Both the position numbers and the translations under genes were made by a program. Under the pieces are notes generated by a model. That model did no database searches. It was not told the DNA's origin and saw only the letters and a list, made by a program, of their open reading frames with translations. Positions 37,347-52,898 of a stretch of DNA of 64,000 nt are shown here, one piece after another; position 1 is the stretch's first letter, and the number at the start of each line of letters is the position of its first letter. The stretch lies in assembly GCA_016192685.1 (NCBI GenBank), contig JACPTS010000001.1, positions 97,710 through 161,709 of the forward strand, read 5' to 3'. The DNA comes from Candidatus Harrisonbacteria bacterium. GTDB taxonomy: Bacteria > Patescibacteriota > Minisyncoccia > UBA6257 > 02-FULL-45-10c.

Positions 37347-37840
37347 GTAACAATTAGATCAACTTCTTCCCCGTTTTTAATATAAAGCGCATTTGCTTCA
37401 TCAGTATCCAGATGAACCCGAAAATCAAAATTTGGGCTCACCCGAACCAGCACTTTATCCAATCGGCCGGCCCGGACGCCGCCTTTTTGAATAGCCACTT
37501 CATCGCCGTCTTTTAATCCGAGTTCCTGGGCTTGGCGGTCAGAAATATGCAGATGCCGCAATGTTACGGCATATCCGGTTTCTTTATTTCTTTTCCATTT
37601 TGGCGCTGTATCGCGGCCAAAACGCTTAATCCAATCAGTTAAAGACAATTCAAATTGGTCCTCCGATCGGCAAGGCATAATCACCCGAAAATCCTCCATT
37701 CCGTCGTTATAATATTCTTTACTCGCCCATTGTTCCGGCTGGGATAAATCTTTCAGCTTAGTCAATTTCAAACCGGATTTTTTTAAAGTTTCCTCGGTTA
37801 AATGACAATGCTTATTGGAAACCTCGCAGATTACTTTCAT
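37343..37840 (-). CDS. PduL-family phosphate acyltransferase-like protein
   Basis: 165 aa. Two PduL half-repeats: VSNKHCHL and RHLHIS...LGLKDGDEV...GVRAGRLDKVLVRVSPNFDFRVHLDTDEANA. The latter closely matches the Salmonella PduL C-repeat (RHIHMS...LGVKDGDSV...VRVSPKF...HLDTDEANA). Confidence 0.7.
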   Translation of the reverse strand: MKVICEVSNKHCHLTEETLKKSGLKLTKLKDLSQPEQWASKEYYNDGMEDFRVIMPCRSEDQFELSLTDWIKRFGRDTAPKWKRNKETGYAVTLRHLHISDRQAQELGLKDGDEVAIQKGGVRAGRLDKVLVRVSPNFDFRVHLDTDEANALYIKNGEEVDLIVT

Positions 37841-37849
37841 AATTTATTT

Positions 37850-40014: not shown

Positions 40015-40115
40015 TTTAAATGCGTTACTGCTATCTATATAAAACCAAAAAATAAGCCTAAAAGTTTTTAATGAAAATCCACGCAATGGCGTGGATTTTG
40101 TGTAAAGATTATTCT

Positions 40116-40550
40116 TTATTTTTTCCTCCGTTTTCTCAATTTTTCCGAATATTCTTCTGTGGTCATTAAAAATCTGGCCGGTGAACCAGCCCAAACTTCA
40201 TTAGGCGGCAAATCTTTATTTACAAAACTCTGCGCTCCGACAATGGTATTTTCACCAACAGTAATGCCCGGCATCACGATGCTATGCGAACCGATTCGGC
40301 AATTCTTTTTAAGAACCACCAACCCTTGTTTATCATCAATAGTAGAGGCTGAATAAAGGGTGCAATGGGAGCCTATTTGTACTTCATCTTCAATCGTCAC
40401 GCCATGGTGCGCGAAAATCGCGGTAAATGCTCCGATATCTGTTTTTTTACCAAGCTTAAAATTCTCCGGACGATAAACTACCCAATTCCATTTGGTAAGT
40501 TTTCCGTGCTCAATTTTTGGCAGTTGCCAATTTTTAAATCGATTATTCAT
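40116..40550 (-). CDS. hexapeptide-repeat (LbH) acetyltransferase
   Basis: 144 aa. IGSHCTLYSASTI, IGSHSIVMPGITVGENTIVGAQSFV. Confidence 0.8.
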   Translation of the reverse strand: MNNRFKNWQLPKIEHGKLTKWNWVVYRPENFKLGKKTDIGAFTAIFAHHGVTIEDEVQIGSHCTLYSASTIDDKQGLVVLKKNCRIGSHSIVMPGITVGENTIVGAQSFVNKDLPPNEVWAGSPARFLMTTEEYSEKLRKRRKK

Positions 40551-40557
40551 AAATTAA

Positions 40558-41235
40558 TTATTTAATTTTAAAAAGTTTCTTAGCTAATTCAAGGTCTTCA
40601 AAAGTATCTATGTCAACACTTCTTTCAAATGGTATCACGTATTTGCCCAAATCTTTTCCATAATATTTTTTCTCTTTCAAAAAATTAGCAACCTTCACCC
40701 AGCGCACCGCTCCCGAGGGGCAATAGACTTTGGGCAATTTTTTTGAATCAACCAAATATTTTTTCCCAAAAAAGAAATCCAGACGCCCATTTTTTTCTTC
40801 CAGTGCCCAAAACGGATACAGCCAATAGTAATCAACCACGCTCATTAAGCAATTTTTCTTTAATTTCCGTAAAATTTCGTAGGATTTCTTGACGTCTTCC
40901 GAATTTCGCAAGGGGCAATTCGGCATCAGCAGGCATAAATAATCAAATTTTGTTTTAACATTTTTCAACAAATGCGCGGTCACGTCTTCTAATGACGCCT
41001 TATCGCCGGAAATTTCCGCCGGGCGAAGAATCTTTTTAACGCCTTTATAAGAATCGGCCGCGTTTAATATTTCCTCTGAATCAGAAGAAATATAAATACT
41101 ATCGCCAAAAAGCCCTGATTTTATAGCCGCTTCAATTGTATGGGCAATCATCGGCTTGCCGTGAAAATCAACAATATTCTTTTTGGGAATTCTTTTTGAA
41201 CCGCCCCTGGCCGGAATAAGACAAATATTTTTCAT
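40558..41235 (-). CDS. acylneuraminate cytidylyltransferase family (CMP-ulosonic-acid synthetase)
   Basis: 225 aa. N-terminal ICLIPARGGSKRIPKKN signature. Confidence 0.85.
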   Translation of the reverse strand: MKNICLIPARGGSKRIPKKNIVDFHGKPMIAHTIEAAIKSGLFGDSIYISSDSEEILNAADSYKGVKKILRPAEISGDKASLEDVTAHLLKNVKTKFDYLCLLMPNCPLRNSEDVKKSYEILRKLKKNCLMSVVDYYWLYPFWALEEKNGRLDFFFGKKYLVDSKKLPKVYCPSGAVRWVKVANFLKEKKYYGKDLGKYVIPFERSVDIDTFEDLELAKKLFKIK

Positions 41236-42086
41236 ATTGTTTTGAATTCAATCGCCAGAGCCGTGGCTTCGGCCTGGGCAATATGAGTCATATGAGTTCT
41301 TTTGCTCTCAATTTCCCGAATACGAGAAAGCATGCCAACAAGACCCTGACGATGATACGCGCCAAGAATAACTTTACCCATTTCATCGGCATTGCGGCTC
41401 TCGGCAAACTCAATCATGCCGTCAGTAAATAAAAGCAAAGTCTTTAATTCTTTCAGCGGTAAAGTTGTTTTATACCAGCTATTTTCCGCTCCTGACTGGC
41501 CATTAAGAACAACTGCCTTTTTATCTAAATTTTTATTTACTCTTTCAATCCGCAATTTAGCGGAGATAGGCATATATTCAAGCCAGGCTCTATTGCGATC
41601 GCCGTGGTATTTTTTAATAATGTTATTAATAATATTGATACACTCTTCTTCATTAAGAATATTTTGATTTGATGTTGCTCCTATTTCCCCGTTAGTTTTT
41701 TCCCATACCGCATAGCAATCGCCCCCCTGCAAAATTTGGATGCCGTCTTCTCCTATTTTTACAAAAGCAAAAGCCATTCCCGGCAATAAGTCCGCGCGAT
41801 TCATATCAATCCCCTGCGATTCAGAAAATTCCCGAAGTCGGGCATTTGCTTTTTTTACAACCGCGATCAATTCGTCGCTATCGTTCGCTTGAGTAAAAAC
41901 CTCATCCACTATTTCAACGGCCTTTTGCCCGCCGGATTTGCCGCCAAAAAGCCTTGGCCCGACTGCCGGGTCATAAAGTCCGCTTACTCCATCCAGCACT
42001 CCAAAAAACGGCGGGTGAAAAACAAGTCTATCTTCCAAAATCTTTGCCGTTCCCGAATCATAAAGAGTTTTTACCCGAAAATCCAT
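41232..42086 (-). CDS. PP2C/SpoIIE-like protein phosphatase domain protein
   Basis: 284 aa. GVLDGVSG (cf. PP2C GxxDGHGG), GGDCYAVW, and LLFTDGMIE (cf. the DG[LV]WD motif). Assignment is moderate. Confidence 0.55.
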   Translation of the reverse strand: MDFRVKTLYDSGTAKILEDRLVFHPPFFGVLDGVSGLYDPAVGPRLFGGKSGGQKAVEIVDEVFTQANDSDELIAVVKKANARLREFSESQGIDMNRADLLPGMAFAFVKIGEDGIQILQGGDCYAVWEKTNGEIGATSNQNILNEEECINIINNIIKKYHGDRNRAWLEYMPISAKLRIERVNKNLDKKAVVLNGQSGAENSWYKTTLPLKELKTLLLFTDGMIEFAESRNADEMGKVILGAYHRQGLVGMLSRIREIESKRTHMTHIAQAEATALAIEFKTI

Positions 42087-42092
42087 AATATT

Positions 42093-43103
42093 TTAAAAGT
42101 CAGAATATTTTAATATCGTATTTTTAACCAAATCCCGTTTAGCTCTTTTTCCAAGCACCTTAGCCATTTCCGAAGAAGGAATTCCGGTCCCGGGCCTTTT
42201 GACTCCCAGCAGATCCTCGGTTATTTTGGTTCCCTTTGAAATATTTACATTGGCAACCAGACTGCGCCGGAAAGCTTTCCGCATTTCTTTTTCTCTCGCC
42301 CCGGGCGCGATATTTTTTTCATTGGAATTAACAGCTTTATCAAAAAATCTGATTTGCTCAGCCATCTTTTTAAATTCCGCCGGGTCAGCCGAACTTGGCT
42401 GGTCCGGGCCGGGCATGTTTTTATCCAAAGTAAAATGCTTTTCAATTATTTTAGCTCCCAAAGCAACCGCAGCAACCGGCGCGAAAATATCCAGAGTATG
42501 GTCAGAATAACCGATAATGTGTTCGGGGAAAGCTCTTTTTAAAATTCCAATTCTTTGCAAATTCAATTCTTCGGCTTTAGGCGGATACAGCGAAACACAG
42601 TGTAAAATCCCCAGATTCTTTTTCCGGTCTTTTAAAATTTGGACTGCTTCTTCTATTTCTTCCATATCTCCCAAGCCAACTGAAATAATTATCGGTTTTT
42701 TTGTTTTAACAACTTCCTTCAATAAAAAATGGTTATTTAAATCGCAAGAAGCAATTTTAAAAAGCGGGGCGCCGATTTTCTCCAGCATTGCGATTGACCG
42801 CTTTCCGAAAACCGACGCGAAAAAAATAATTCCTTCCTTTTTGGCAAAATCAGCCAATTTAACATAGTCATCGCCGGATAATTCCCAGCCCTTTAACATT
42901 TCAAAAAAACTCTGCCCGCCCTTAACATGCTCCGCTTTCCGCGCTTCCTCAATAATCAACTCTTCGGTTTTAAAGGCCTGAAATTTTACCGCGTCAGCAC
43001 CGCAGGCTTTTGCCGCGGTAATCAGTTTTTTAGCGGTCTCAAAATCACCGTTATGGTTAATACCGGCTTCGGCAATGATAAAAACGGAGTCTTTTTTAAA
43101 CAT
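42093..43103 (-). CDS. NeuB-family ulosonic-acid synthase (second copy)
   Basis: 336 aa. IIAEAGINHNGD, KFQ, YSDHT, IEKHFTLDK and a C-terminal SAF domain. Confidence 0.88.
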   Translation of the reverse strand: MFKKDSVFIIAEAGINHNGDFETAKKLITAAKACGADAVKFQAFKTEELIIEEARKAEHVKGGQSFFEMLKGWELSGDDYVKLADFAKKEGIIFFASVFGKRSIAMLEKIGAPLFKIASCDLNNHFLLKEVVKTKKPIIISVGLGDMEEIEEAVQILKDRKKNLGILHCVSLYPPKAEELNLQRIGILKRAFPEHIIGYSDHTLDIFAPVAAVALGAKIIEKHFTLDKNMPGPDQPSSADPAEFKKMAEQIRFFDKAVNSNEKNIAPGAREKEMRKAFRRSLVANVNISKGTKITEDLLGVKRPGTGIPSSEMAKVLGKRAKRDLVKNTILKYSDF

Positions 43104-43136: not shown

Positions 43137-44582
43137 TTAAGATGGCGCTGTTTCCAGCTCGGAAAGAATCAGCCGCGAAAGATTTTTAATGTTTTCTTCC
43201 TTGCTTATTCCGGAAAGTTCTTTTCCAACTAAATCAAAATAGGCCTGGACACTGGATTGATCCAGGGCCGCCAAGTAATTAAACATTAACTCGGGGCTAA
43301 CCCCGAATCCTTGCCGGATTCTCCAAATGGCATCTTTGCAACTTTCAACATTATTAACTTTGAAAACGCCGGAACATTCCTTATACCAGGGAAAACCAAA
43401 AACTAAAACCGGTTTTGCCCTCATTAACGCCTCCCAGCCCGCGGTTCCGCTCACCGTAGCCAATACCTGGCAATTTCTGATTAATTCATGGGTGCCGGTG
43501 GCCATTGGCACGAGGCGTACATTTGGCAATCGGGCAATAGATTTATAAAAACCTCGGTAACGGCAATTAAAAAAATTAAGCCCGCGAGGCAGCCACTGCG
43601 ACGGGTGCTCTTTTACATAAATCAGCCAATCAGAAGGAACGCTAGCGGCTAAAATCTCAATCATTAAAATTTGATTAACAAATACGCCGCCTTGAGGGCT
43701 GGAAGTCCGCTCCGGTTGATAATTCAGAGGGACGTAAATAAACGGTTTGGTAAAATCAGCGGGCAAGGCTACGCTTTCATATTCAGTTTTCAGGTTTTCG
43801 CGAAAAATTTTTGAAATAAAATTAAACGTTTTTCCAAAAAAAGTGAGGTTAACGAGGCTGTCCCTGATCATTTTAATTTTGGTAAAAATAGCTTTCTTCC
43901 CGATATAATTCTTTTTTAATTTTTGGATGTTCCGCGGAACCATATCGGATAATTGCTCTTGATAATGCCGCCGCATATCTTCCCGCAGATCCGCTAAAAC
44001 AAATTTCCGGCCCCGATTATCTTGCAATGCTTTCTCTAAAGATCGGCTGCCGATTCGATAATCATTCATTAATAACATCCGGTCAAATTGGACAATTCTT
44101 TCAAATATAATATTTTTTATATTTAACAATTCACATATGGAAAAAATAATAAAATCATAAACAGTATGGGGAATATCATTGTGGATGACAACATCCGGTT
44201 TCAAAGTTTGGATAACTCCGTACCAATACCGCACCAAGTCAAAATAAATTTGCTTCCGTTCGGAAACGCCGATATCTTTATATTTTTTATTCATCATGCT
44301 CAAAACTGCTGATTCGGCTTCATACAACTTTGCGATTAAATCCTCTCCCGGGGGGAAAAAATTAGAAGTGTTTATCTCCTTTGCGGGAAGGCCCGCCACA
44401 GCATCTTCATGAGAGTGCCAGATGACTCCGGAAAATTCTTTGCTGTCGGCGATTTTTCCTATACCAGTTCCAGCCCAAGTCCAATAAACAATTTTATGCG
44501 ATTGTTTCTGAAGTTCTTTGGCAACTTCCACCAATCCAAGACCGTCATCAACAGACCAGCCAATTATAAATATCCGTTTCAT
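43137..44582 (-). CDS. capsule-polysaccharide-biosynthesis-like protein (KpsC/KpsS/LpsZ, PF05159-like; putative ulosonic-acid transferase)
   Basis: 481 aa. FIYVPLNYQPE...QILMIE...IYVKEHPSQ...VSGTAGWEALM pattern. Paralog of 44579-46072. Confidence 0.5.
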   Translation of the reverse strand: MKRIFIIGWSVDDGLGLVEVAKELQKQSHKIVYWTWAGTGIGKIADSKEFSGVIWHSHEDAVAGLPAKEINTSNFFPPGEDLIAKLYEAESAVLSMMNKKYKDIGVSERKQIYFDLVRYWYGVIQTLKPDVVIHNDIPHTVYDFIIFSICELLNIKNIIFERIVQFDRMLLMNDYRIGSRSLEKALQDNRGRKFVLADLREDMRRHYQEQLSDMVPRNIQKLKKNYIGKKAIFTKIKMIRDSLVNLTFFGKTFNFISKIFRENLKTEYESVALPADFTKPFIYVPLNYQPERTSSPQGGVFVNQILMIEILAASVPSDWLIYVKEHPSQWLPRGLNFFNCRYRGFYKSIARLPNVRLVPMATGTHELIRNCQVLATVSGTAGWEALMRAKPVLVFGFPWYKECSGVFKVNNVESCKDAIWRIRQGFGVSPELMFNYLAALDQSSVQAYFDLVGKELSGISKEENIKNLSRLILSELETAPS

Positions 44583-46072
44583 AATTTTGGCAATTCCGCC
44601 GCTATAAAATCAGCGATATTTTTCATGCTTTCCGATTGAGATAAATCAGAACCCTCGCCGGCCGAAGGCGCCCGATAACCCCGAATCCCTGCTTTTCCCA
44701 AGCTTTTCAAATAATTAATTGTTAGTTGGGGGTCAACTTTAAAGCCATTGACAATTTTATTGACGGCGTCCCGGCAAGAAGAAACATCCCGAACGAGAAA
44801 AATTCCCGGACAATCCAAATACCAAGGATAACCGAAAATAATCGCCGGCTTGGACCAGAGCGTCGCTTCCCAACCGGGAGCGCCGGAGGCCGTCGCCACT
44901 GCCTGGGATTCTTTAATTAATCGGTAGGAATTCGTTTCCACTGGAATAATTTTAACATTTTTAATTTCGGAAATTTTTTGATAATAGCCGCGATTTTTAT
45001 AATTGGAAAATCCCAAACCGAAACGAAGCCATTGAAGCGGATGTTCTTTCACGTAAATAATCCAATTTTCCGGCAAAGCGGCGGACAATGTTTCCAGCAT
45101 CAGAATCTGGTCAACAAAAACATCGCCTTGCGGAGCAGTGGAACATTCCGGCTGAACCTGTAACGCGACATAAATAAATTTCTTGGAAAAATCCGGAGCA
45201 GACTCAAAACTCCGGTATTCTTTTTTTAAATTATCCTGAACCGCGTAAGAAATGTTAAAAAATAATTTTTTAATCCAGCGCCGATAATTCCTACTCCCCC
45301 ACTTCCACCGTAAATAACCAAAAGATTTCCAAAAAATAGTTCCGTCTTGGATACTCGCTCTTACTTTTGAAATAAACAGCGGGTCTACCAAAGAATATTT
45401 CTTTTTTAGAAACCTCAGATTCCCCGGCATTTCATTGAAATCCTTTTTTGTCGTTCTTAAATAATACTTCCGGATATCCTCCGGCAAATCATCAACGCTG
45501 AAGTTTTTCTCCCGATTGAACTCCAATTCTTTTTGAAGCCGCTCACTGCCCAGCCAAAAATCTTTTAACGGCAATAATCGGCCGGGAATCCTGGTATCAA
45601 CAAAAGTAAGAACCTTAATTCCCAGAAGTTTAGCTAGGGAATAAAGAACAAAATCGTAAGAATTATGAGGAATATAGGAAAGAATCACGGCTTCCGGCTG
45701 ATATTTTTTTAACACGCCGAACCAATATTGAACCAGATGATAATAAAAATGCTTGCGCCTGTTAACCTCGTCTTTAAAAACCAAATTCATCGGTACTAAA
45801 TTATTAAGCATGGTTAAAGTTAAAGATTCGGTTCTATAAAGTTTCTCAATTAAATCAGTTCCCGGCGGCAAAAAATCAGACATATCAATACCAGCGGCTG
45901 GCCTGCCGTTCATCGCGTCTCCAAAAAAATGAAATATCGCTTCCGGCGGCTTAAATTCATCCGCGCCCTCGGAACCGACAAAATAAACAATTTCGTGATT
46001 ATGTTTTTTAAGCTCCGAGATAAGATGGATGAATTGCTGGCCCTTGTCCGGCCAAACCAAAATTAGTTTCAT
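44579..46072 (-). CDS. capsule-polysaccharide-biosynthesis-like protein (KpsC/KpsS-like paralog)
   Basis: 497 aa. FIYVALQVQPE...QILMLE...IYVKEHPLQ...ASGAPGWEATL. There is a 4-nt ATGA overlap with the downstream paralog. Confidence 0.5.
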   Translation of the reverse strand: MKLILVWPDKGQQFIHLISELKKHNHEIVYFVGSEGADEFKPPEAIFHFFGDAMNGRPAAGIDMSDFLPPGTDLIEKLYRTESLTLTMLNNLVPMNLVFKDEVNRRKHFYYHLVQYWFGVLKKYQPEAVILSYIPHNSYDFVLYSLAKLLGIKVLTFVDTRIPGRLLPLKDFWLGSERLQKELEFNREKNFSVDDLPEDIRKYYLRTTKKDFNEMPGNLRFLKKKYSLVDPLFISKVRASIQDGTIFWKSFGYLRWKWGSRNYRRWIKKLFFNISYAVQDNLKKEYRSFESAPDFSKKFIYVALQVQPECSTAPQGDVFVDQILMLETLSAALPENWIIYVKEHPLQWLRFGLGFSNYKNRGYYQKISEIKNVKIIPVETNSYRLIKESQAVATASGAPGWEATLWSKPAIIFGYPWYLDCPGIFLVRDVSSCRDAVNKIVNGFKVDPQLTINYLKSLGKAGIRGYRAPSAGEGSDLSQSESMKNIADFIAAELPKL

Positions 46073-47928
46073 AGATTTGAATTTTTATTTAAATGGTATA
46101 TTTGATAAAAATAAGATTGCGGCTGTCGCAAAAGTTCCTGCGGCGCGCCGCTTTCCACAATGCGGCCTCCATCCAATACCAAAATCCTGTCAAATTCCCT
46201 AACCGTAGAAAGCCGGTGCGCGATCGCAAAAACCGTAATTTTGCCGCGCAAATCCGCGATTGCTTTCTGAATAAGCGCTTCTGATTCATTATCCAAAGCG
46301 CTGGTGGCCTCGTCAAGAATTAAAATCTCGGGTTTTCGCGCCAAAACTCTGGCTAGCGCGATTCTTTGTTTCTCTCCGCCGGAAAGACGGACTCCTCTTT
46401 CACCAACTATAGTTTCAAATTGCTCGGGAAGATTTTTAATAAATTCATAAATATTGGCCATTTTTGCCGCTTCAATAATATCCTCTTTATTCATCGCGGG
46501 GTCGTAAAATTTAATATTATTCAAAATAGTATCGTTAGTTAAAAAAACATCTTGAGACACATAGCCGATATTTGTTCTCCATTCCCGCAAACTGATGTCA
46601 GCCGCGTCTTCTCCGTCCAACAAAATTACTCCGCTCTTTGGTTTAAACAAACGCAAAAGCAAATCAACAATCGTGGTCTTGCCGGCGCCGGAAGAGCCGA
46701 CTAATCCCAATAATTCTCCCTTTTTAATATAAAAATTGTTATGGGACAATATTTCCTTCTGGCCGTCATAATCAAAACCGACATCCTTAAATTCCAAGCT
46801 ATGGCGGAAAGAAAAATTTTTTCTTCCGGAATCCGTTTCTTTATTGCTCGCGGCCTCTTCGCGGTAAGCCAAAACGCTGGCAAGCGACGGAATCAAAGAA
46901 TTCCACACATATACTTCCGATTGGGCCGCCTGAATACCGGCAAAAACCCTGTTAATCGCGTAAACCGCCACCGCGAAAGAACCGAGATTAAACGCGCCGC
47001 TTTTATAAAAAAAAGTAAATACGCCGACAATAAACAAAATGCCTACCGGCTGGAGCATCGCGGTATTAAAACTGCCGAGTTCTCCGATTTTAATTTGTAA
47101 ATTCTTTATATCGTCAAAATATGCTTCGCCTTTTCGCAATGCCCGCTCCTCGGCAAACATTGATTTAATGGATTTCATCCCGATAATATTCTCATTCACG
47201 TAATGGGCCAAATCTTTGGATCTTTGGACCATTTTCTGGGACAGGTTTCTGGTTTTATTGAATAACGGCTTAAATAAAAATAATATTGCCCCGCCAAAAA
47301 CAATAGCCAATACCGCGACCCAAAAAGAAACATTTACCACCAATAAACTATAAATGGCGATATTAACCGCTATTAAAAATGCGGAACTGATATGAGCCAG
47401 TAAGGCCGAACTATCTTTGACATTGGCCACTAAAATCTGATCCAAATGCCCGACTTTTTGCTTAGAAAGATAAGACCAATCGCCGGCAAAAGTTAATTTT
47501 AAAAGCTCCAGCCGGGTTTTTTTCTGGTAATCTCCGATAATAACATTGGTAATATATTGGCCGGCAAATAACAAAATAGCCTTAATAAAAAATAACAGCA
47601 AAATAAAAATAAGCAGGTATTGAATCGTAAAATTTATATTGGAATAAATAAAAAAACTCTCTATCGCTCTGGAAATAACATCGTTTGCCGGAACGTTATT
47701 TTTATCGGCAAAAGAAAGCAGGGGGATAATCGCGTTTATCCCGAAACCTTCCAGAATTCCGCTAAAAAAAGTCAGAACTGCCATAATCGCAATCTGCGAT
47801 TTATACTGCCCGAAAGCTTCTTTTAATAATCGCAACCATTCCGAAAATTTATATTTTTTATTGACCATATACTTCAATATAACCCTAAAAAATAAAAATG
47901 AGTTACCCGCTTTGGCACTCATTTTCAT
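46069..47928 (-). CDS. ABC transporter, fused permease/ATPase (MsbA-like exporter)
   Basis: 619 aa. Six TM helices, then Walker A GSSGAGKTT, signature LSGGEKQRIALAR and Walker B ILILDEATSALD. Confidence 0.9.
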   Translation of the reverse strand: MKMSAKAGNSFLFFRVILKYMVNKKYKFSEWLRLLKEAFGQYKSQIAIMAVLTFFSGILEGFGINAIIPLLSFADKNNVPANDVISRAIESFFIYSNINFTIQYLLIFILLLFFIKAILLFAGQYITNVIIGDYQKKTRLELLKLTFAGDWSYLSKQKVGHLDQILVANVKDSSALLAHISSAFLIAVNIAIYSLLVVNVSFWVAVLAIVFGGAILFLFKPLFNKTRNLSQKMVQRSKDLAHYVNENIIGMKSIKSMFAEERALRKGEAYFDDIKNLQIKIGELGSFNTAMLQPVGILFIVGVFTFFYKSGAFNLGSFAVAVYAINRVFAGIQAAQSEVYVWNSLIPSLASVLAYREEAASNKETDSGRKNFSFRHSLEFKDVGFDYDGQKEILSHNNFYIKKGELLGLVGSSGAGKTTIVDLLLRLFKPKSGVILLDGEDAADISLREWRTNIGYVSQDVFLTNDTILNNIKFYDPAMNKEDIIEAAKMANIYEFIKNLPEQFETIVGERGVRLSGGEKQRIALARVLARKPEILILDEATSALDNESEALIQKAIADLRGKITVFAIAHRLSTVREFDRILVLDGGRIVESGAPQELLRQPQSYFYQIYHLNKNSNL

Positions 47929-47949: not shown

Positions 47950-48549
47950 TTAATCTGTAATGCTCCAGTTATAATCGCCTTTGCTGGCGCGATAGAGTTT
48001 GCATTTTTTAATGTCCGCGGAAGAAAGACTAAGCGCTTCACAATCTAAATTAGAATTAAAATCAATAGTTGTCAGCGTGCTTCTGGAAAGATTAATAGTG
48101 CTGCCAAGAGCGTAATTATCCGAAGAGCTGGGATTGCTAGCGGTATTAGCGGATTGCGACGCCGGTTGAATAATATTGCCGTTAACATCCACTAAAGCGC
48201 CATTTGGCAAACGAAAAGTTCCTGATGGCAAAGATGGGGCTGGAGATGGAGTGGGCGGAGCCGGTGAAGCTTTTTTCAACGCTTCCAAAAATTGGGCGGT
48301 TTGCGCCAATTTCTCTTCTATTTCCGTTTTTTTGGTTTTTGCCGTGGTCTGAACAACTGATTTTTCTTCTTTTTCCGGCTGACTAATGGCCGCTTCCTGA
48401 ACTATCTCCTGACTGCTGGTTGCGGCGACCGGCGCTTCGAAAACCCCGCTTTGTGGGGCTAAAGGCGCGGAAACCAAACCAACCGCCACTAAAATCGTTA
48501 CGGCAACGGACGCTATTTTATTAAAAACTGCGCTTAAAAATCCCCACAT
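47950..48549 (-). CDS. hypothetical secreted/anchored protein with a Pro-rich linker
   Basis: 199 aa. N-terminal TM, then KLAQTAQFLEALKKASPAPPTPSPAPS, the same style as the repeats in the 23454-24386 protein. Confidence 0.45.
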   Translation of the reverse strand: MWGFLSAVFNKIASVAVTILVAVGLVSAPLAPQSGVFEAPVAATSSQEIVQEAAISQPEKEEKSVVQTTAKTKKTEIEEKLAQTAQFLEALKKASPAPPTPSPAPSLPSGTFRLPNGALVDVNGNIIQPASQSANTASNPSSSDNYALGSTINLSRSTLTTIDFNSNLDCEALSLSSADIKKCKLYRASKGDYNWSITD

Positions 48550-48574: not shown

Positions 48575-50074
48575 TTAAAATTTCAAAATATGCCCCTGAA
48601 CAGTTAAAATCAGCTCTACAATTTCCCGAACCGCGTGCTGCCCGCCCTTGGCTGCCGCGACATAATCAACAATGGATCTTATTCTCGGATGGGCATCGGC
48701 AACCGTGATTGATACTCCAACCACATTAAAAACCGCTTCATCATTTAAATCATCGCCAATATAAGCCGCTTCTTTTTGAGAAAATCCGTACTCCGACATA
48801 ATCCTTTTTAAAATTTCCGCTTTTCCGCCGGCATCGGCTACGCCTTGCGAACATTTAATATTCCAAGTTTTACAACGGGCAGCCACTACCGGATTAATTG
48901 TTTTAGAAATGACGTAGGGTGTGATGCCAAACCGTTTCAGCATTTCAATGCTTAAACCATCTTTACGGCTGCAACGCACGGTTTCTTTCCCGTTTTGGTC
49001 AATATAAACAAATCCATCGGTTAGCACGCCGTCAAAATCCATTGCCAATAACTTAACATTTTTTAACTTTTCGGCTAATTCTTGATTAGAAAACCAGATC
49101 GCCCTCCTGGGAAAAATAATTCTTACCATCGCCCAAGACTTATCATCAAATAACACGAAAGCCAGTAAAAAAATCAGTGTGCCGAACGCCTTAAAAAAAG
49201 TCGCCGGCTCGCCAAAAAACAAAACTCCAAAAATCATCGTCATAATCAAATAACTGCTGTTCATTACCAAATTTTTAAAAGCGATAAAAGCGCCAAATTT
49301 ATAACTTAAAAGATTGAAAATCAAGGCGCCGACAAAAAATACGCTGGTACCGGCCGCTGCTAACCAAAACTTCCGCATTGACAAAGAAAAATCAGCTAAT
49401 AACTCAACCTGATTTAACCAAAATAATCCTCCCAAAGAAACCAAAATCGTTGCTAAACCTCCCCAAAAACTCAATGTCAAAGGATGAGATTCTTTAATCC
49501 ATTGGGCAATCCCTTGAATAACCGCCAAAAGCAGCATCACCGCAAAAGACAATTCAATCCAAAGCGGCAAATTAGAAATCTCCGCCAAAGACGGATAACC
49601 GAGAACTGTATATCCGGCTGCTGCGGCAAACACAATGCCTAAAATCTTCCGAAAATTTAAGGTATTGCCGAAAAGAAAATAACCAATCAGCGCTCCGGGA
49701 ACTATGGATAAAGTAACAATTAAAGTATTGACGCCTACATCTCCGCCGCTAGCAAAAACCAAAAAAGTGAGGATAGTGGCAACTGAAAAAATAATCCCAT
49801 ATAAAATTGCTCCGAAAATATGTTTTGGGGCATCCAGAATACTGCCTAAAGATTTATCAGTAAGTCCCCGGCTGACAGCATAAATAACCTGAAACAAACC
49901 AATAACTAAAGTAGCGGCATAAGCATGGCCAAAAGTAACGCTGAGCTGGCCGACGGATTTCTGAAATAACTTAGCTCCAGTTTTAAAAACCGCTTCCAGC
50001 AAAATCCATTTCATCCAGGACTCACCGGCCATCTTTCTGCCATCCCAAAATATCTTTAAAAAATTATTTGCCAT
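48575..50074 (-). CDS. polytopic membrane domain fused to a KdsC-family (HAD-IIIA) ulosonate-phosphate phosphatase
   Basis: 499 aa. About 330 aa with 9-10 TM helices, then LLAMDFDGVLTDG...GDDLND...KGG, which is the KdsC/YrbI signature. Confidence 0.75.
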   Translation of the reverse strand: MANNFLKIFWDGRKMAGESWMKWILLEAVFKTGAKLFQKSVGQLSVTFGHAYAATLVIGLFQVIYAVSRGLTDKSLGSILDAPKHIFGAILYGIIFSVATILTFLVFASGGDVGVNTLIVTLSIVPGALIGYFLFGNTLNFRKILGIVFAAAAGYTVLGYPSLAEISNLPLWIELSFAVMLLLAVIQGIAQWIKESHPLTLSFWGGLATILVSLGGLFWLNQVELLADFSLSMRKFWLAAAGTSVFFVGALIFNLLSYKFGAFIAFKNLVMNSSYLIMTMIFGVLFFGEPATFFKAFGTLIFLLAFVLFDDKSWAMVRIIFPRRAIWFSNQELAEKLKNVKLLAMDFDGVLTDGFVYIDQNGKETVRCSRKDGLSIEMLKRFGITPYVISKTINPVVAARCKTWNIKCSQGVADAGGKAEILKRIMSEYGFSQKEAAYIGDDLNDEAVFNVVGVSITVADAHPRIRSIVDYVAAAKGGQHAVREIVELILTVQGHILKF

Positions 50075-51002
50075 GATTAACTAACTCCTCACAAATCTTT
50101 TTTGCAACCGCATATTGAGTTTCCGGAGTAAAAGTAGCAATATGCGGCATGGCAATAACTTTCGGGTGAGAAATCAAACGCTTAAGAATTTCATTATTAA
50201 ACGGCGGCTCTTCGGAAAATACGTCCAAAGCAACGCCGGCAACCCACCCGGATTCAACCGCCGCCAGCAACGCCTTTTCATCTGTCACTTCTCCGCGCGA
50301 AGTATTAATTACATAGGCTCCTGGTTTTAATAAAGATAATAATTTTTCATTAACTATTTGCTTGGTAAGGTCAGTCAATGGCACATGGAAAGTAATAAAA
50401 TCGCTTTTTTGAAGCAAGGTTTCCAATTCTGATTTTTCCACGCCAATACTCTTTAAAAAATCTTCATCATAGACTATATCATTTGCCAGCACCCGCATCC
50501 CTAAATTTCGCGCCATTTTCGCAACCTCTTTGCCGATATTTCCCAAACCGACGATTCCAAGAGTTTTCCCGGAAACTTGCGTTGCCGATGTCCGTTTCCA
50601 CTTGCCTTCTCTCATGTCATTGGCAAACGGCACGATATTGCGAGCCAAAGTAAAAATAAAAGCCATGGTCAGCTCGGCAACCGAATGTTTATTAATGCCG
50701 GGAAAAAACTTTAACGCAATTCCCCGCTCTTCCAGCGCCGGAATATCAATATGTTCTAACCCCACTCCAAATGGCATTACCACTTTAAGATTGGGAAATA
50801 GCGAAAATTCTTTTTTGCCAACCGGCAATAAAGCTCCGGCTACCATCGCCGCCACCTCTTCGGGATTAAAAGAAAATGGCGGGTTAAGCCGCTCATCTAG
50901 CACAACGCGCCAACTATGCTCATCTAAAAATTCCGCCAGGTCAGGAGAACGGACAATAGTATTAGAAAATGACGGAGTGGTGGTAAGAACTATTTTGGCC
51001 AT
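50064..51002 (-). CDS. D-isomer-specific 2-hydroxyacid dehydrogenase
   Basis: 312 aa. GKTLGIVGLGNIGKEVA and the catalytic R/E/H arrangement with PHIA. Confidence 0.85.
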   Translation of the reverse strand: MAKIVLTTTPSFSNTIVRSPDLAEFLDEHSWRVVLDERLNPPFSFNPEEVAAMVAGALLPVGKKEFSLFPNLKVVMPFGVGLEHIDIPALEERGIALKFFPGINKHSVAELTMAFIFTLARNIVPFANDMREGKWKRTSATQVSGKTLGIVGLGNIGKEVAKMARNLGMRVLANDIVYDEDFLKSIGVEKSELETLLQKSDFITFHVPLTDLTKQIVNEKLLSLLKPGAYVINTSRGEVTDEKALLAAVESGWVAGVALDVFSEEPPFNNEILKRLISHPKVIAMPHIATFTPETQYAVAKKICEELVNHGK

Positions 51003-52165
51003 GGATGCTGTTTCAAGGCTTTTTCATTTATTTCCGTGCCCCAGCCTGGTCCTTTCGGAAGTTCCATCTGGCCGTTAATAATCTTCGGAACATTGGTAAC
51101 CACCTCATCCCGCCACGGCACATCTTCCACATCCAATTCCATAATCCGAAGATTGGGAATCACCGCAGAAAGCTGGGCGCTGATAAAAGTCGCCAAATGC
51201 CCGTTATGGTTATGAGGCGCAAAATTCATTTCCTGTAATTCCGCCAAGGCCGCGATTTCTTTAGCGCGGATAAATCCATTCCAGGTCGGATTGGAAATAA
51301 CAATATCCATGGCATGGCGTTCCAAATAAGGACGATATTGCCTCGCGCCGTAAAGGTCTTCACCGGAAGCAATTGGAATTTTTACTGAATCCCTAATCAA
51401 CCGAAGCGCGCCTGGATCATAAGAATCCAGTTCCAGCCACATCAAATTGTATTTTTCCAGCATCCGGCCAATTTTAATAAAGCCCTCGGTTTTAAAATTA
51501 AAATTAAGGTCTAAAATAATATCTATATCATCGCCGGCAGCATCGCGAAGCGCGCTTGCCCACTTATCAATCGCTTTCAATTTATAATTATCAACATTCA
51601 GTTCTGGCCAGCCATCGCTTTTAGCAAAGCCCGCCATATAAATTTCCGGCTTCTCGCCAAAAAATGCGACTTTCGGCTTAATCACTTTAAAACCGGAGGA
51701 TTTTACCTCTTTAATTAACTCTTTTAACTCGCTAAGCGACTGCATCTGCGGTTTGCCGATCGCGGCCGCGTCCCGAACCCGGGAAGTGGCAAAATGCGAC
51801 CAGTATAAAGGAATGGTCTCGCGGACTGGCCCACCAAATAATTCGTAAACCGGAACGCTTAAAGCTTTTGCTTTAATATCTAAAAGCGCGTTTTCAATGC
51901 CGCCAATGGCTTTTTGAATAATACTGCCCGGACTCTGCCGAGTCCGCGAATACATCAGCCAGTATAATTTTTCCACCAAACGCGGGTCCTGACCAACTAA
52001 AAGCGAACTTAAATCTTTAATAACTCCCTCAAGTCCGCGCGGCGAGCCATGGGAATCAGAGCATTCGCTCCAGCCAACCAAACCTTCATCTGTGGAAATT
52101 TTAACAAAAGTCCACGGCCGCCAGCCCGCATCACAATATAAAGCTTCTACTTTAGTAATAACCAT
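50990..52165 (-). CDS. enolase-superfamily (mandelate racemase/muconate lactonizing enzyme-like) sugar-acid dehydratase
   Basis: 391 aa. Capping domain plus TIM-barrel acid residues (IDIILDLNFNF, LDSYD pattern). Confidence 0.75.
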   Translation of the reverse strand: MVITKVEALYCDAGWRPWTFVKISTDEGLVGWSECSDSHGSPRGLEGVIKDLSSLLVGQDPRLVEKLYWLMYSRTRQSPGSIIQKAIGGIENALLDIKAKALSVPVYELFGGPVRETIPLYWSHFATSRVRDAAAIGKPQMQSLSELKELIKEVKSSGFKVIKPKVAFFGEKPEIYMAGFAKSDGWPELNVDNYKLKAIDKWASALRDAAGDDIDIILDLNFNFKTEGFIKIGRMLEKYNLMWLELDSYDPGALRLIRDSVKIPIASGEDLYGARQYRPYLERHAMDIVISNPTWNGFIRAKEIAALAELQEMNFAPHNHNGHLATFISAQLSAVIPNLRIMELDVEDVPWRDEVVTNVPKIINGQMELPKGPGWGTEINEKALKQHPWPK

Positions 52166-52169
52166 TTTA

Positions 52170-52886: not shown

Positions 52887-52898
52887 TGATATTACAAC

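What the first reader, a model, noticed from the sequence alone, without database searches (positions are those of the whole stretch)
43137..47928. Tandem KpsC/KpsS-like paralogs plus an MsbA-like ABC exporter: candidate ulosonic-acid transferases
Two adjacent about 480-500-aa proteins share the motifs [PA]LxxQPE...QILM[IL]E...IYVKEHP...SG[TA][AP]GWEA, which is reminiscent of the PF05159 capsule-synthesis family. KpsC and KpsS are beta-Kdo transferases. Here the paralogs sit directly downstream of the CMP-nonulosonate genes and directly upstream of a fused ABC exporter. They are therefore good candidates for retaining transferases that move Pse/Leg/Kdn-type sugars onto a lipid or glycan acceptor before export. 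That would be a role not described for this family in CPR-like bacteria.
Basis: inference. Interest (0 to 1): 0.65.

Follow-up and report, generated by a model that had tools for sequence, protein, structure and literature searches.

The report
Paired nonulosonic-acid transferases with ABC exporter
Two neighbouring genes in this candidate-phyla-radiation bacterium very probably encode enzymes that attach sialic-acid-like nine-carbon sugars to a membrane-bound surface glycan, which the adjoining ABC pump then exports; this enzyme type is already known from Acinetobacter (KpsS1), so it is a large unstudied branch of a known kind, not a new system.

Summary
Three translationally coupled minus-strand ORFs encode an MsbA/Sav1866-type ABC exporter (619 aa), then two paralogs (497 and 481 aa, 40% identical). 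All the quoted motifs are present, and PF05159 is the only Pfam family matched.

The paralogs are confident GT-B folds (pLDDT 94). Their closest characterised relative is not KpsC/KpsS. It is an Acinetobacter baumannii K-locus protein next to the psa genes that fits the published description of KpsS1 (GT118, a retaining pseudaminic-acid transferase): hhalign 98.9%.

The family's invariant Glu291 (QPE) lies at the position of the Asp nucleophile in the QxxxD motif of KpsC. His326 (KEHP) aligns with the HP general acid.

Among 80 related genomes, nearly all CPR:
- 73 have NeuB, cytidylyltransferase or PseB genes within 10 kb.
- An ABC exporter is the immediately preceding recognised gene in 56 of 70 evaluable loci.
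- One distant member is fused to a Wzt-type ABC ATPase inside a legionaminic-acid-type locus.
- The exporter → B-type → A-type order recurs in several CPR lineages.

Best reading: these are CMP-nonulosonate transferases that cap a membrane-bound glycan, coupled to ABC export. This is a new variant of a known kind and of moderate interest. Nothing has been shown biochemically.

The parts
46069..47928 (-). Fused transmembrane-domain plus ATPase ABC exporter (619 aa) of the Sav1866/MsbA/PglK/HepA type. It is the first gene of the trio, and its stop codon overlaps the start codon of B (ATGA).
   Evidence: PF00664 plus PF00005. HepA_fam 348.8, MsbA 323.7 and PglK 228.2 bits, all below their cut-offs. 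Sav1866 2hyd E=9e-70 and MsbA in the PDB. Overlap verified.
44579..46072 (-). Paralog B (497 aa): the exporter-proximal, 'B-type' GT-B transferase predicted to use a CMP-nonulosonate donor.
   Evidence: PF05159 32.8 bits. 40% identical to A. Clusters with the exporter-proximal copies of other tandem loci. Keeps QPE, KEHP and PH.
43137..44582 (-). Paralog A (481 aa): the exporter-distal, 'A-type' GT-B transferase predicted to use a CMP-nonulosonate donor.
   Evidence: PF05159 35.1 bits. AF2 pLDDT 94.4, pTM 0.92. hhalign 98.9% to the A. baumannii KpsS1-type protein. 100% identical to the Candidatus Harrisonbacteria MAG protein HYY86_00730, annotated as hypothetical.
43710..43718 (-). QPE motif of A (Q289-P290-E291). 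Glu291 is the candidate catalytic nucleophile, at the position of Asp in the QxxxD motif of KpsC/KpsS.
   Evidence: Invariant in 121/121 close homologs. Glu is present in 146/146 aligned distant representatives and in all three clades. The spacing to the HP His is 35 residues, against 34 in KpsC and 35 in the KpsS1-type protein.
43602..43613 (-). KEHP motif of A (K324-E325-H326-P327). It is the 'HP' motif; the His is the candidate general acid acting on the CMP phosphate.
   Evidence: Aligned to 'YVKVHP' of T. dismutans KpsC and to 'YVKDHK' of the KpsS1-type protein. The role of this His in KpsC/WbbB is taken from PMC10148158.
44166..44171 (-). Invariant P138-H139 in the strand-to-helix loop of the N-terminal domain of A. 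It is a candidate acceptor-activating base. It lies 2-3 residues after the position of the 'YE' Glu132 of KpsS1, which is not conserved here.
   Evidence: 121/121 conserved. The hhalign register against the KpsS1-type protein. Positions 135-136 are not acidic in the family. The assignment as base is inference.
43758..43985 (-). Basic amphipathic helical insertion of A (residues 200-275), inferred to be a module for peripheral membrane binding.
   Evidence: It carries +8 of the protein's +10 net charge and includes the helix with the highest hydrophobic moment (muH 0.61). No transmembrane segment is predicted. The equivalent region of B carries +13 of +13. It is all-helical in the model.
45146..45154 (-). 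QPE motif of B (residues 307-309), within 'ALQVQPE'; compare KpsS 'VLQVYND'.
45038..45049 (-). KEHP motif of B (residues 342-345).
35623..43103 (-). Nonulosonate module downstream in transcription: NeuB (42093..43103), a 284-aa ORF of unknown function, PseF-like cytidylyltransferase (40558..41235), hexapeptide acyltransferase, PseC-like aminotransferase, PseB-like dehydratase, PTAC, DUF218, and a second NeuB (35623..36681).
48575..60284 (-). Sugar-modification and nonulosonate genes upstream in transcription: PseB (59307..60284, above the TIGR03589 cut-off), DegT, two cytidylyltransferases (57403.., 52170..), short-chain dehydrogenases, an aldolase, 2-hydroxyacid dehydrogenases, an enolase-superfamily protein, and an EamA+HAD fusion.
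26054..28240 (-). Wzy_C (O-antigen-ligase / PglL-type) plus TPR membrane protein (728 aa) that closes the locus. It is the candidate extracytoplasmic transferase for the exported glycan.
   Evidence: PF04932 76.8 bits plus TPR repeats. It recurs in 11 of 80 related loci and in L005.

Best explanation
A and B are cytoplasmic, peripherally membrane-bound GT-B glycosyltransferases. They use CMP-activated 5,7-diamino nonulosonic acids (pseudaminic/legionaminic type) made by the surrounding genes.

They belong to a very large, unnamed family centred on CPR bacteria. Its closest characterised relative is the Acinetobacter retaining pseudaminyltransferase KpsS1 (GT118). KpsC/KpsS (GT107) and WbbB (GT99) are more distant.

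Proposed chemistry, inferred from motif equivalence:
- The C-terminal Rossmann domain binds the CMP-sugar.
- His326 (KEHP) protonates the departing CMP.
- The invariant Glu291 (QPE) takes the place of the Asp nucleophile of QxxxD and forms a glycosyl-enzyme intermediate.
- An acceptor hydroxyl held by the variable N-terminal domain (candidate base His139) resolves that intermediate. The anomeric configuration is therefore retained.

Proposed pathway, inferred from synteny and one gene fusion:
- The acceptor is a membrane-embedded, lipid-linked glycan. The locus has a Bac_transf initiating transferase and GT2/GT4 enzymes.
- B-type and A-type enzymes add nonulosonate residues at two different positions or linkages.
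- The capped product goes to the co-translated MsbA/PglK-type ABC exporter. This resembles the way the beta-Kdo cap added by WbbB licenses ABC export.
- A Wzy_C/TPR protein then probably transfers the glycan to a surface acceptor.
For: Family and fold:
- PF05159 is the only Pfam hit.
- There is a weak hit to the BFO_1060 family, whose Tannerella members are genetically validated Pse/Leg-derivative transferases (PMC5420450).
- The AF2 model has pLDDT 94.4 and a GT-B fold; WbbB gives the highest TM-scores among the listed hits.
- The profile aligns to KpsC-N with hhalign 96.9%, E=1.6e-10.
- It aligns to an A. baumannii K-locus protein that follows psaA-F with 98.9%, E=1.5e-17, over 307 columns. 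That protein has YE at 131-132 and about 30% identity to KpsS, as published for KpsS1 (PMC12887879).

Motifs:
- Glu291 is invariant in 121/121 close homologs and 146/146 aligned distant representatives.
- It sits 6 residues after the first strand of the C-terminal domain, the position Asp160 appears to occupy in KpsC (strand placement in KpsC judged from its sequence). It is 25 residues before the conserved Pro and 35 before the His.
- The KpsS1-type protein has HPE...KDH with the same 35-residue spacing.
- C-terminal-domain residues are invariant in all three clades, while N-terminal-domain residues differ in the divergent clade.

Context:
- 73 of 80 loci carry NeuB, CTP_transf_3 or PseB. An ABC exporter is the immediately preceding recognised gene in 56 of 70 evaluable loci, mostly with gaps of -4 to +20 nt.
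- ATGA overlaps join the three genes here.
- P0248 is a Wzt-type ATPase fused to a full-length family member. It sits next to an ABC-2 permease in a locus with NeuB, NeuC-like, PglD-like, WecA-like and Wzy_C genes.
- A 28%-identical full-length homolog lies in a NeuB/NeuC/CMP-transferase/ABC cluster on a Rhizobium sp. WL3 plasmid.
- The exporter → B-type → A-type order is conserved in Harrisonbacteria, Giovannonibacteria and others.
- The basic amphipathic insertion and the absence of a transmembrane helix fit a peripheral membrane enzyme.
- No other candidate nonulosonate transferase family was found among the annotated ORFs of the window.
Against: - There is no biochemical evidence at all.
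- The alignment of QPE onto QxxxD rests on spacing, secondary structure and ungapped extension. hhalign did not align that stretch confidently with KpsS or with KpsC (starts at residue 306).
- I could not read model coordinates, so I have no 3-D check of which residues line the cleft.
- Fold search alone does not set KpsC/WbbB apart from other GT-B proteins. UDP-GlcNAc 2-epimerases and GT1 enzymes score as well, and TagF-like capsule polymerases appear at ranks 34 and 43.
- The HP His is replaced by Asn in 27 of 147 distant representatives.
- The proposed base of KpsS1 (Glu132) is not conserved here.
- The number of transferase copies does not track the number of NeuB copies, so 'one enzyme per sugar' is unsupported.
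- That the Acinetobacter ORF is KpsS1 itself is inferred, not checked against an accession.
- The window also encodes a Wzx-type flippase, so the exporter's substrate is not certain.
Confidence: 0.7

Rival explanations
1. The donors and context are the same, but the enzymes invert configuration in a single displacement, like GT38/GT52/GT80 bacterial sialyltransferases. These also carry an HP motif. Glu291 would then bind substrate or act as base rather than as nucleophile.
For: The HP motif is shared by inverting sialyltransferases (PMC5420450). Most natural legionaminic-acid linkages require inversion from the CMP-beta donor (my own knowledge). The QxxxD Gln at position -4 is not conserved. 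The alignment in the motif region has low confidence.
Against: No sialyltransferase Pfam family matched at E<=1. The only families with significant similarity are KpsC/KpsS and the KpsS1 type, all reported as retaining (PMC10148158, PMC12887879). The acidic residue is invariant and lies exactly at the nucleophile position.
Confidence: 0.2
2. The pair works like KpsS plus KpsC. One enzyme puts the first nonulosonate on a phospholipid or glycolipid, and the other extends it. The result is a lipid-anchored oligo- or poly-nonulosonate that the ABC exporter moves out directly, with no polyprenol-linked glycan acceptor.
For: The pair is homologous to KpsS/KpsC. Two ancient, order-conserved paralog types lie next to an ABC exporter. 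Both carry a basic amphipathic insertion suited to a lipid surface. Loci such as L005 and L026 have two transferases but only one NeuB within the flanks.
Against: 60 of 80 loci have a single copy. The exporter is of the MsbA/PglK type, not the KpsMT ABC-2 type. Bac_transf, GT2, GT4 and Wzy_C genes in this and related loci point to a conventional lipid-linked oligosaccharide. KpsS1, the closest characterised relative, adds a single Pse to a sugar of a repeat unit (PMC4487303).
Confidence: 0.15
3. They are genuine beta-Kdo transferases (GT107-type KpsS/KpsC orthologs).
For: PF05159 membership. The cytidylyltransferase at 57403..58155 has weak KdsB-like hits.
Against: The QxxxD Asp is replaced by Glu, and the Gln is not conserved. 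The N-terminal domain is much larger than in KpsC. Similarity to KpsC/KpsS is limited to about 70-150 C-terminal residues. The neighbours are NeuB, PseB, PseC and PseF-like genes, with no KdsA-type synthase. The proteins are closer to the KpsS1 type than to KpsS or KpsC.
Confidence: 0.04
4. They are TagF/TagB-like CDP-glycerol or CDP-ribitol phosphotransferases that build a teichoic-acid-like polymer exported by the ABC transporter.
For: They have a GT-B fold. TagF-like capsule polymerases appear among the fold hits (8qoy and 8a0m, ranks 34 and 43). The Tannerella nonulosonate transferases were once annotated as TagB-like.
Against: There is no PF04464 hit at E<=1. No TagF structure is among the top full-length fold hits. 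No CDP-glycerol or CDP-ribitol synthesis genes were seen. Co-occurrence with NeuB and CMP-transferase genes is strong.
Confidence: 0.03
5. They glycosylate a protein directly in the cytoplasm, like Maf or FlmG acting on flagellin, and the ABC exporter is unrelated.
For: Large surface proteins are encoded next to the locus. Nonulosonates are often attached to proteins.
Against: There is no similarity to Maf or FlmG families. Translational coupling to the exporter is tight and conserved, and a fusion to an ABC ATPase exists. CPR bacteria of this group are not known to be flagellated (my own knowledge).
Confidence: 0.05

Closest known systems
KpsS1 of Acinetobacter baumannii (GT118), a retaining Pse5Ac7Ac pseudaminyltransferase, together with its relatives KpsS2 and Gtr59
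   Same: - Length is about 480 aa, and the PF05159 hit is partial in the same way.
- hhalign gives 98.9% over 307 columns, covering the end of the N-terminal domain, the helical insertion and the whole C-terminal domain.
- The motif geometry is the same: xPE, then 35 residues, then K[D/E]H.
- The gene sits next to a nonulosonate biosynthesis module (PMC4487303).
   Different: - Identity is only about 22-31%, and the first 115 or so residues cannot be aligned.
- The proposed base of KpsS1, Glu132 (YE), is replaced by non-acidic residues, with an invariant Pro-His 2-3 residues later.
- The motifs read QPE/KEHP instead of HPE/KDHK.
- The family is coupled to an MsbA-type ABC exporter rather than lying in a Wzx/Wzy capsule locus.
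- It is found in CPR bacteria.
- The Acinetobacter ORF was identified as KpsS1 from published descriptors, not from an accession number.
KpsC and KpsS (GT107), retaining beta-Kdo transferases that build the capsule lipid anchor
   Same: - Same Pfam family.
- The C-terminal domain is homologous: hhalign 96.9% to KpsC-N.
- The HP motif aligns.
- An acidic residue sits at the nucleophile position.
- The products go to an ABC export pathway.
   Different: - Glu replaces Asp, and the Gln of QxxxD is not conserved.
- The N-terminal domain is much larger and has a basic helical insertion.
- The EDG/EEG base motif was not recognisable.
- The neighbouring genes make nonulosonates, not Kdo.
- The exporter has a different ABC architecture.
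WbbB GT99 module (Raoultella/Klebsiella), a beta-Kdo chain terminator
   Same: - GT-B fold, with the best TM-scores among the listed full-length fold hits.
- The logic is the same: an ulosonic-acid cap is added to a lipid-linked glycan and coupled to ABC-transporter export (PMC12887879). The Wzt-ATPase::transferase fusion P0248 mirrors this.
   Different: Sequence similarity is negligible (E about 0.8). The donor is Kdo. The terminator role for the CPR enzymes is my hypothesis only.
Tannerella forsythia Tanf_01245 / TFUB4_00887 (NCBIfam BFO_1060 family), Pse/Leg-derivative transferases
   Same: There is weak profile similarity across the region containing the HP motif (26.7 and 20 bits). The gene lies next to CMP-nonulosonate genes, and the sugar transferred is a terminal nonulosonate (PMC5420450).
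   Different: The scores are far below the family cut-off of 200 bits, so A and B are not members. The Tannerella enzymes carry DXD and D/E-D/E-G motifs that were not examined here.

Membership tests
Pfam PF05159 Capsule_synth (KpsC / KpsS / KpsS1 superfamily) | Score above the Pfam gathering threshold | tested here: met
   A scores 35.1 bits and B 32.8 bits against a cut-off of 20. Only profile positions about 144-271 of 310 are matched.
GT118 (KpsS1) | Significant sequence similarity to KpsS1 | tested here: met
   The family profile against the A. baumannii K-locus KpsS1-type ORF (L088:8125-9567): hmmsearch E=1.1e-22 and hhalign 98.9%, E=1.5e-17, 307 columns. BLASTP of that ORF against A gives 30.7% over 137 aa, E=8e-18. 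Caveat: that this ORF is KpsS1 is inferred from YE131-132, about 30% identity to KpsS, and its position after psaA-F.
GT118 (KpsS1) | Glu132 of the 'YE' motif, the proposed general base (PMC12887879) | tested here: not met
   In the hhalign register the YE pair aligns with positions 135-136, which are Pro/Ser and Thr/Ala/Val in the family. An invariant P138-H139 follows.
GT118 (KpsS1) | Retaining transfer of Pse5Ac7Ac from CMP-alpha-Pse | not testable with these tools
   This needs an enzyme assay and NMR of the product.
GT107 (KpsC/KpsS) | Invariant QxxxD motif with an Asp nucleophile | tested here: not met
   The position-equivalent residue is an invariant Glu (E291). Position -4 is His, Asn, Gln or Ser.
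GT107 (KpsC/KpsS) | HP motif (His as general acid) | tested here: met
   KEHP aligns to KVHP of KpsC. His326 is conserved in 120/121 close homologs, but in only 107/147 distant representatives.
GT107 (KpsC/KpsS) | General-base Glu in the N-terminal-domain E-D/E-G motif (Glu66 of KpsC) | tested here: inconclusive
   The N-terminal domains do not align. Position 161 is the residue at a topologically similar strand end, and it is acidic in only 97 of 121 sequences.
GT107 (KpsC/KpsS) | CMP-beta-Kdo donor, with Kdo biosynthesis genes in the context | tested here: not met
   The neighbours are NeuB, PseB, PseC and PseF-like. No KdsA-type synthase was found among the annotated ORFs of the window.
GT99 (WbbB) | Sequence similarity to the WbbB Kdo-transferase module | tested here: not met
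   Profile against PDB sequence: E about 0.8. Only fold-level similarity was found (TM 0.32/0.38).
NCBIfam NF046086 BFO_1060 family (Tannerella Pse/Leg transferases) | Score above the curated cut-off (200 bits) | tested here: not met
   26.7 bits for A and 20 bits for B.
TagF / CDP-glycerol glycerophosphotransferase (PF04464) | Pfam match | tested here: not met
   No hit at E<=1.
Bacterial sialyltransferase and Maf families (GT38, GT42, GT52, GT80, Maf) | Pfam match to any of these families | tested here: not met
   PF05159 was the only Pfam family reported at E<=1.
GT-B fold glycosyltransferases | Two Rossmann-like domains, with the nucleotide-sugar site in the C-terminal domain | tested here: met
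   AF2 pLDDT 94.4. Foldseek hits to GT-B enzymes at E 1e-9 to 1e-7 for the full length and 1e-5 to 1e-3 for the C-terminal domain.

The most novel reading that the evidence does not exclude
This would be a distinct glycosyltransferase family, not GT107 and not strictly GT118. It would use a Glu nucleophile (QPE) and a His base (PH). Its general job, across thousands of CPR/Patescibacteria lineages and some Proteobacteria, would be to add a nonulosonic-acid cap that licenses a lipid-linked glycan for ABC export, by analogy with the WbbB Kdo terminator. If so, sialic-acid-like surface coats would be a common, ABC-exported trait of these episymbiotic bacteria. The conserved B-type plus A-type pair would build a defined di-nonulosonate or doubly capped structure.
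Probability: 0.3. Interest if true: 0.6.

Novelty: new variant of a known kind. Interest (0 to 1): 0.42.

Why it matters
Few cognate transferases for bacterial nonulosonic acids are known (PMC5420450). KpsS1 was characterised only in 2024.

This analysis gives a specific, testable function to a very large family that is everywhere annotated as 'hypothetical': 2926 clusters at 50% identity with E<=1e-30, and 9863 with E<=1e-3.

It also names the catalytic residues to mutate (E291, H326, H139). It shows a conserved coupling to an ABC exporter, including a natural fusion.

It suggests that many CPR bacteria display pseudaminic/legionaminic-type sugars on their surface. These organisms are uncultured, have reduced genomes and live attached to hosts. 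Such sugars could bear on host attachment, phage recognition and immune mimicry.

A 28%-identical full-length homolog in a cultured Rhizobium offers an experimental way in.

Tried and rejected
2. HMMER local and glocal alignment of a KpsC fragment to the family profile did not cover the QxxxD region. hhalign against KpsS misaligned that region. The Glu/Asp equivalence therefore rests on spacing, on secondary structure and on the KpsS1-type alignment.
3. The search with E. coli KpsS listed only enterobacterial KpsS of at least 64% identity among its best 120 hits and did not reach KpsS1. KpsS1-type sequence came instead from a tblastn of the plasmid collection, which holds mislabelled A. baumannii chromosomes.
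4. The KpsS1 paper itself is not in the held library.
5. I tested the idea of one transferase per nonulosonate pathway by counting copies. Transferase and NeuB copy numbers do not correlate, so I dropped it.
6. TagF, sialyltransferase, Maf and Kdo-transferase readings were considered and rejected (see rival explanations).
7. The hit of B's N-terminus to the designed TIM barrel 7mcd comes from a repeated short segment and is spurious.
8. Literature searches pairing CPR names with nonulosonic, pseudaminic or sialic acid found nothing relevant.

Full report
**What is there.** The interval 43137-47928 holds exactly three ORFs, all on the minus strand:
- 46069..47928, 619 aa
- 44579..46072, 497 aa, called B here
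- 43137..44582, 481 aa, called A here

The whole region from about 26 to 64 kb is a single minus-strand gene array. In the direction of transcription the 619-aa gene comes first, then B, then A. Both junctions are ATGA start/stop overlaps, which indicates translational coupling.

A and B are 40% identical over their full length, E=2e-127. The only correction is to 'upstream' and 'downstream': the exporter is transcriptionally upstream, and NeuB (42093..43103) is downstream.

**Family assignment.**
- PF05159 (Capsule_synth) is the only Pfam family found for A or B at E<=1. Both hits are above the gathering score, but they cover only the C-terminal Rossmann region of the profile. No TagF (PF04464), sialyltransferase or Maf family appears.
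- NCBIfam gives only a weak match, 26.7 and 20 bits against a cut-off of 200, to the BFO_1060 family. That family is named after the Tannerella forsythia proteins whose knock-outs lose the terminal Pse/Leg derivative of the O-glycan (PMC5420450).
- The 619-aa protein is a fused transmembrane-domain plus ATPase exporter of the Sav1866/MsbA/ABCB type. HepA, MsbA and PglK models all score below their cut-offs.

**Structure.**
- With a 121-sequence alignment, AlphaFold2 gives a very confident model of A: pLDDT 94.4, pTM 0.92.
- The model has an N-terminal Rossmann-like domain, an all-helical insertion at about residues 180-271, and a C-terminal Rossmann domain.
- Foldseek against the PDB returns GT-B enzymes: UDP-GlcNAc 2-epimerases, GT1 enzymes and MurG. 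The WbbB GT99 Kdo-transferase gives the highest TM-scores among the listed hits.
- A model of the C-terminal domain alone (pLDDT 91.5) again hits generic GT-B C-terminal domains. KpsC is at ranks 14, 16, 26 and 44, and WbbB at 19, 20 and 38. TagF-like capsule polymerases appear at ranks 34 and 43.

**Closest characterised relative.**
- Profile searches link the C-terminal domain to KpsC. hmmsearch against PDB sequences gives E=1.7e-8, and KEHP aligns to KVHP of T. dismutans KpsC. hhalign to E. coli KpsC-N gives 96.9%, E=1.6e-10. The link to KpsS is weaker, at 78-83%.
- A tblastn of A against the plasmid collection hit two A. baumannii records of 3.7-4.1 Mb. These are evidently chromosomes filed as plasmids.
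- In one of them the hit is a 480-aa ORF lying one gene after a PseB/PseC/PseF...PseI (psa) module.
- That ORF has YE at residues 131-132. It is 29.6% identical to E. coli KpsS over 98 residues and belongs to PF05159. This matches what PMC12887879 reports for KpsS1, the retaining Pse5Ac7Ac transferase that founded GT118: Glu132 in a YE motif and 30% identity to KpsS.
- The window family aligns to this ORF far better than to KpsC or KpsS. hmmsearch gives E=1.1e-22. hhalign gives 98.9%, E=1.5e-17 over 307 columns, running from the last part of the N-terminal domain through the helical insertion to the end of the C-terminal domain. In the reverse direction, BLASTP with the Acinetobacter ORF as query gives E=8e-18 to A, against 1e-7 to KpsS and 4e-7 to KpsC-N.
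- The closest known enzyme is therefore a KpsS1-type pseudaminyltransferase. I inferred that the ORF is KpsS1 from these descriptors. I could not check it against an accession, and the KpsS1 paper is not held.

**Catalytic residues.** In KpsC and WbbB three residues do the chemistry (PMC10148158):
- the Asp of an invariant QxxxD motif, the nucleophile that forms the Kdo adduct
- the His of the HP motif, the acid acting on the CMP phosphate
- an N-terminal-domain Glu, the base

The spacings are as follows (for E. coli, for the Acinetobacter protein):

| Protein | Motifs | Acidic residue to His |
|---|---|---|
| KpsC-N (E. coli) | QTFND160 ... H194-P195 | 34 |
| KpsC-C (E. coli) | QVEDD488 ... 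H522-P523 | 34 |
| KpsS (E. coli) | LQVYND237 ... H275-P276 | 38 |
| A (this window) | PLNYQPE291 ... H326-P327 | 35 |
| B (this window) | ALQVQPE ... KEHP | 35 |
| KpsS1-type (A. baumannii) | IHFHPE303 ... KDH338 | 35 |

- Glu291 lies 6 residues after the first strand of the C-terminal domain. Asp160 appears to hold the same position in KpsC; I judged the KpsC strand from its sequence, not from a structure. Both lie 25 residues before a conserved Pro.
- Extending the hhalign alignment with KpsC-N backwards without gaps puts Asp160 on Glu291.
- Q289-P290-E291 and K324-E325 are invariant in 121 close homologs.
- Glu291 is present in all 146 aligned distant representatives, whereas the HP His is Asn in 27 of 147.
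- I infer that Glu291 is the counterpart of the Asp nucleophile and that the enzymes retain configuration like KpsS1. This rests on position, not on a confident residue-level alignment (misaligns the stretch) and not on 3-D coordinates, which the tools do not expose.
- The proposed base of KpsS1, Glu132, is not conserved. The aligned positions 135-136 are Pro/Ser and Thr/Ala/Val. An invariant Pro138-His139 follows in the same loop and is my candidate base.

**Context here.** The locus runs from 26 to 64 kb and encodes:
- two NeuB-type synthases
- three CMP-sugar cytidylyltransferases, two of them PseF-like
- two PseB-type dehydratases, one above the TIGR03589 cut-off
- three DegT aminotransferases
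- hexapeptide acyltransferases, methyltransferases, WbqC and PIG-L
- GT2, GT4 and RGP/STELLO-like transferases
- a terminal Wzy_C plus TPR protein

On the plus strand nearby are a Bac_transf initiating phosphoglycosyltransferase and a Wzx-like flippase. Two giant surface proteins flank the locus. No other candidate nonulosonate transferase family was found among the annotated ORFs.

**Context elsewhere.**
- A is 100% identical to a 'hypothetical protein' of a Candidatus Harrisonbacteria MAG. All the homologs listed are unnamed or 'hypothetical'.
- The profile finds 2926 clusters (50% identity) at E<=1e-30 and 9863 at E<=1e-3.
- A scan of one genome per species found 265 relatives. The best 80 loci are nearly all Patescibacteria/CPR MAGs.
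- Among those 80, 73 have NeuB (49), CTP_transf_3 (51) or PseB (65) within 10 kb.
- An ABC exporter homologous to the one here is the immediately preceding recognised gene in 56 of 70 evaluable loci, mostly with gaps of -4 to +20 nt.
- 11 loci have the Wzy_C/TPR gene, and 20 have two family copies.
- A neighbour-joining tree shows three clades. The A-type clade holds most single copies and the exporter-distal tandem copies. The B-type clade holds the exporter-proximal tandem copies from Harrisonbacteria, Giovannonibacteria and others. A deep clade holds copies transcribed divergently from the exporter. The duplication is therefore old and its gene order is conserved, which argues for two distinct activities.
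- C-terminal-domain residues (P290, E291, K324, E325, H326, P327, R341, E384, K390) are invariant or nearly so in all three clades. The conserved N-terminal-domain residues are lost in the divergent clade. This is what a shared donor site and variable acceptor sites would produce.
- Transferase copy number does not follow NeuB copy number.

**Link to export.**
- One distant member, P0248 (821 aa), is a Wzt/TagH-type ABC ATPase fused to a full-length family member that keeps QPE, VKEHP, GWEA, PH and YW.
- P0248 follows an ABC-2 permease. Its locus has CTP_transf_3, NeuB, a NeuC-like epimerase, a PglD-like acetyltransferase, DegT, a WecA-like transferase and Wzy_C.
- A 28%-identical full-length homolog on a Rhizobium sp. 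WL3 plasmid also lies between ABC transporter genes and neuB, neuC and a cytidylyltransferase gene.
- This parallels WbbB, whose beta-Kdo cap terminates the O-antigen and potentiates ABC export (PMC12887879).
- A and B have no transmembrane helix. Their helical insertions carry nearly all the net positive charge (+8 of +10, and +13 of +13). Each also contains the helix with the highest, or jointly highest, hydrophobic moment in its protein. This fits peripheral binding to the membrane where a lipid-linked acceptor sits.

**Mechanism, with its status.**
- *Shown by computation:* the paralogy, PF05159 membership, the GT-B fold, homology to KpsC and to the KpsS1-type protein, the invariant motifs, and conserved synteny with nonulosonate genes and an ABC exporter.
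- *Inferred:* the donor is a CMP-activated 5,7-diamino nonulosonate. Glu291 is the nucleophile, His326 the acid and His139 the base, so configuration is retained. The acceptor is a membrane-bound lipid-linked glycan. B and A add residues at two positions. The exporter flips the capped product and the Wzy_C/TPR protein transfers it onward.
- *Rivals:* an inverting mechanism, a KpsS/KpsC-like lipid-anchored oligo-nonulosonate, Kdo transfer, TagF-like phosphotransfer, and direct protein glycosylation. Each is weighed in its own section of this report.

**Novelty.**
- PF05159 proteins next to nonulosonate modules (KpsS1, KpsS2, Gtr59) were predicted to be retaining nonulosonate transferases in 2014-15 (PMC4487303). 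KpsS1 was confirmed in 2024 (cited in PMC12887879). The idea itself is therefore not new.
- What is new: a huge, unnamed CPR-centred branch, its QPE/KEHP/PH signature, the loss of the YE base, the conserved coupling and occasional fusion to ABC exporters, and the conserved B-type/A-type pair.
- I found no paper in the held library that links CPR bacteria with these sugars.
- I rate this a new variant of a known kind, of moderate interest.

Noticed in passing
window 48575..56573 (-): Between the two nonulosonate modules lies a block encoding an EamA+HAD fusion, two 2-hydroxyacid dehydrogenases, an enolase-superfamily protein, an HpcH-type aldolase, a cyclase and two short-chain dehydrogenases. 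It may make an unusual acyl substituent for the sugar, for example a glycerate-like group as in Tannerella Pse5Am7Gra.
   Followed up: no
window 36678..37840 (-); also L001, L003 and many of L006-L085: A DUF218 gene recurs between NeuB and the cytidylyltransferase gene in related loci, often followed by an unannotated ORF of about 220 aa; the window has DUF218 and, in addition, a PTAC (phosphate propanoyltransferase) gene. No PseG or NeuC-type hydrolase was seen in the window, so DUF218 or the unknown ORF may supply the missing pathway step.
   Followed up: partly
window 26054..28240 (-): A 728-aa Wzy_C (O-antigen ligase / PglL-like) protein with C-terminal TPR repeats ends the locus. It recurs in 11 of 80 related loci and could be an O-oligosaccharyltransferase or ligase for the exported glycan.
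   Followed up: partly
window 16049..23158 (-) and 5682..9740 (-): Two giant predicted surface proteins lie next to the glycan locus and are possible glycosylation targets. One is 2369 aa with Big_5, CarboxypepD_reg, LTD and PG_binding_1 domains. The other is 1352 aa with LTD domains.
   Followed up: no
window 12388..16020 (+): A Bac_transf initiating phosphoglycosyltransferase, a Wzx/MurJ-like flippase and a truncated-looking UDP-glucose dehydrogenase are encoded on the opposite strand. The window therefore has both a Wzx-type and an ABC-type export route.
   Followed up: no
window 47950..48549 (-), 41232..42086 (-), 23454..24386 (-), 9747..10388 (-): These ORFs have no Pfam assignment, or only a sub-threshold one. 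The 284-aa ORF has a weak PP2C_2 hit. The 199-aa ORF lies immediately upstream of the ABC exporter.
   Followed up: no
L088 (NZ_CP077849.1) and NZ_CP104448.1: Two A. baumannii records of 3.7-4.1 Mb in the plasmid collection are evidently chromosomes labelled as plasmids. Almost no annotation is held for them. That mislabelling is what gave access to a K locus with a KpsS1-type gene.
   Followed up: partly
L006, L041, L054: MAGs titled 'uncultured Gammaproteobacteria bacterium' carry loci of typical CPR type: ABC exporter, family transferase, PseB and NeuB. They are probably taxonomically mislabelled bins.
   Followed up: no
L087 10001-12466 (P0248): A natural fusion joins a Wzt/TagH-type ABC ATPase to a full-length member of this transferase family. 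It lies next to an ABC-2 permease in a legionaminic-acid-type locus of an unidentified metagenomic organism.
   Followed up: yes
L089 8463-14312 (Rhizobium sp. WL3 plasmid): Four consecutive 'hypothetical' genes of 450-513 aa sit between ABC transporter genes and neuB. Only one of them (10001-11530) matches the family profile. The other three are uncharacterised and may be further glycosyltransferases.
   Followed up: partly
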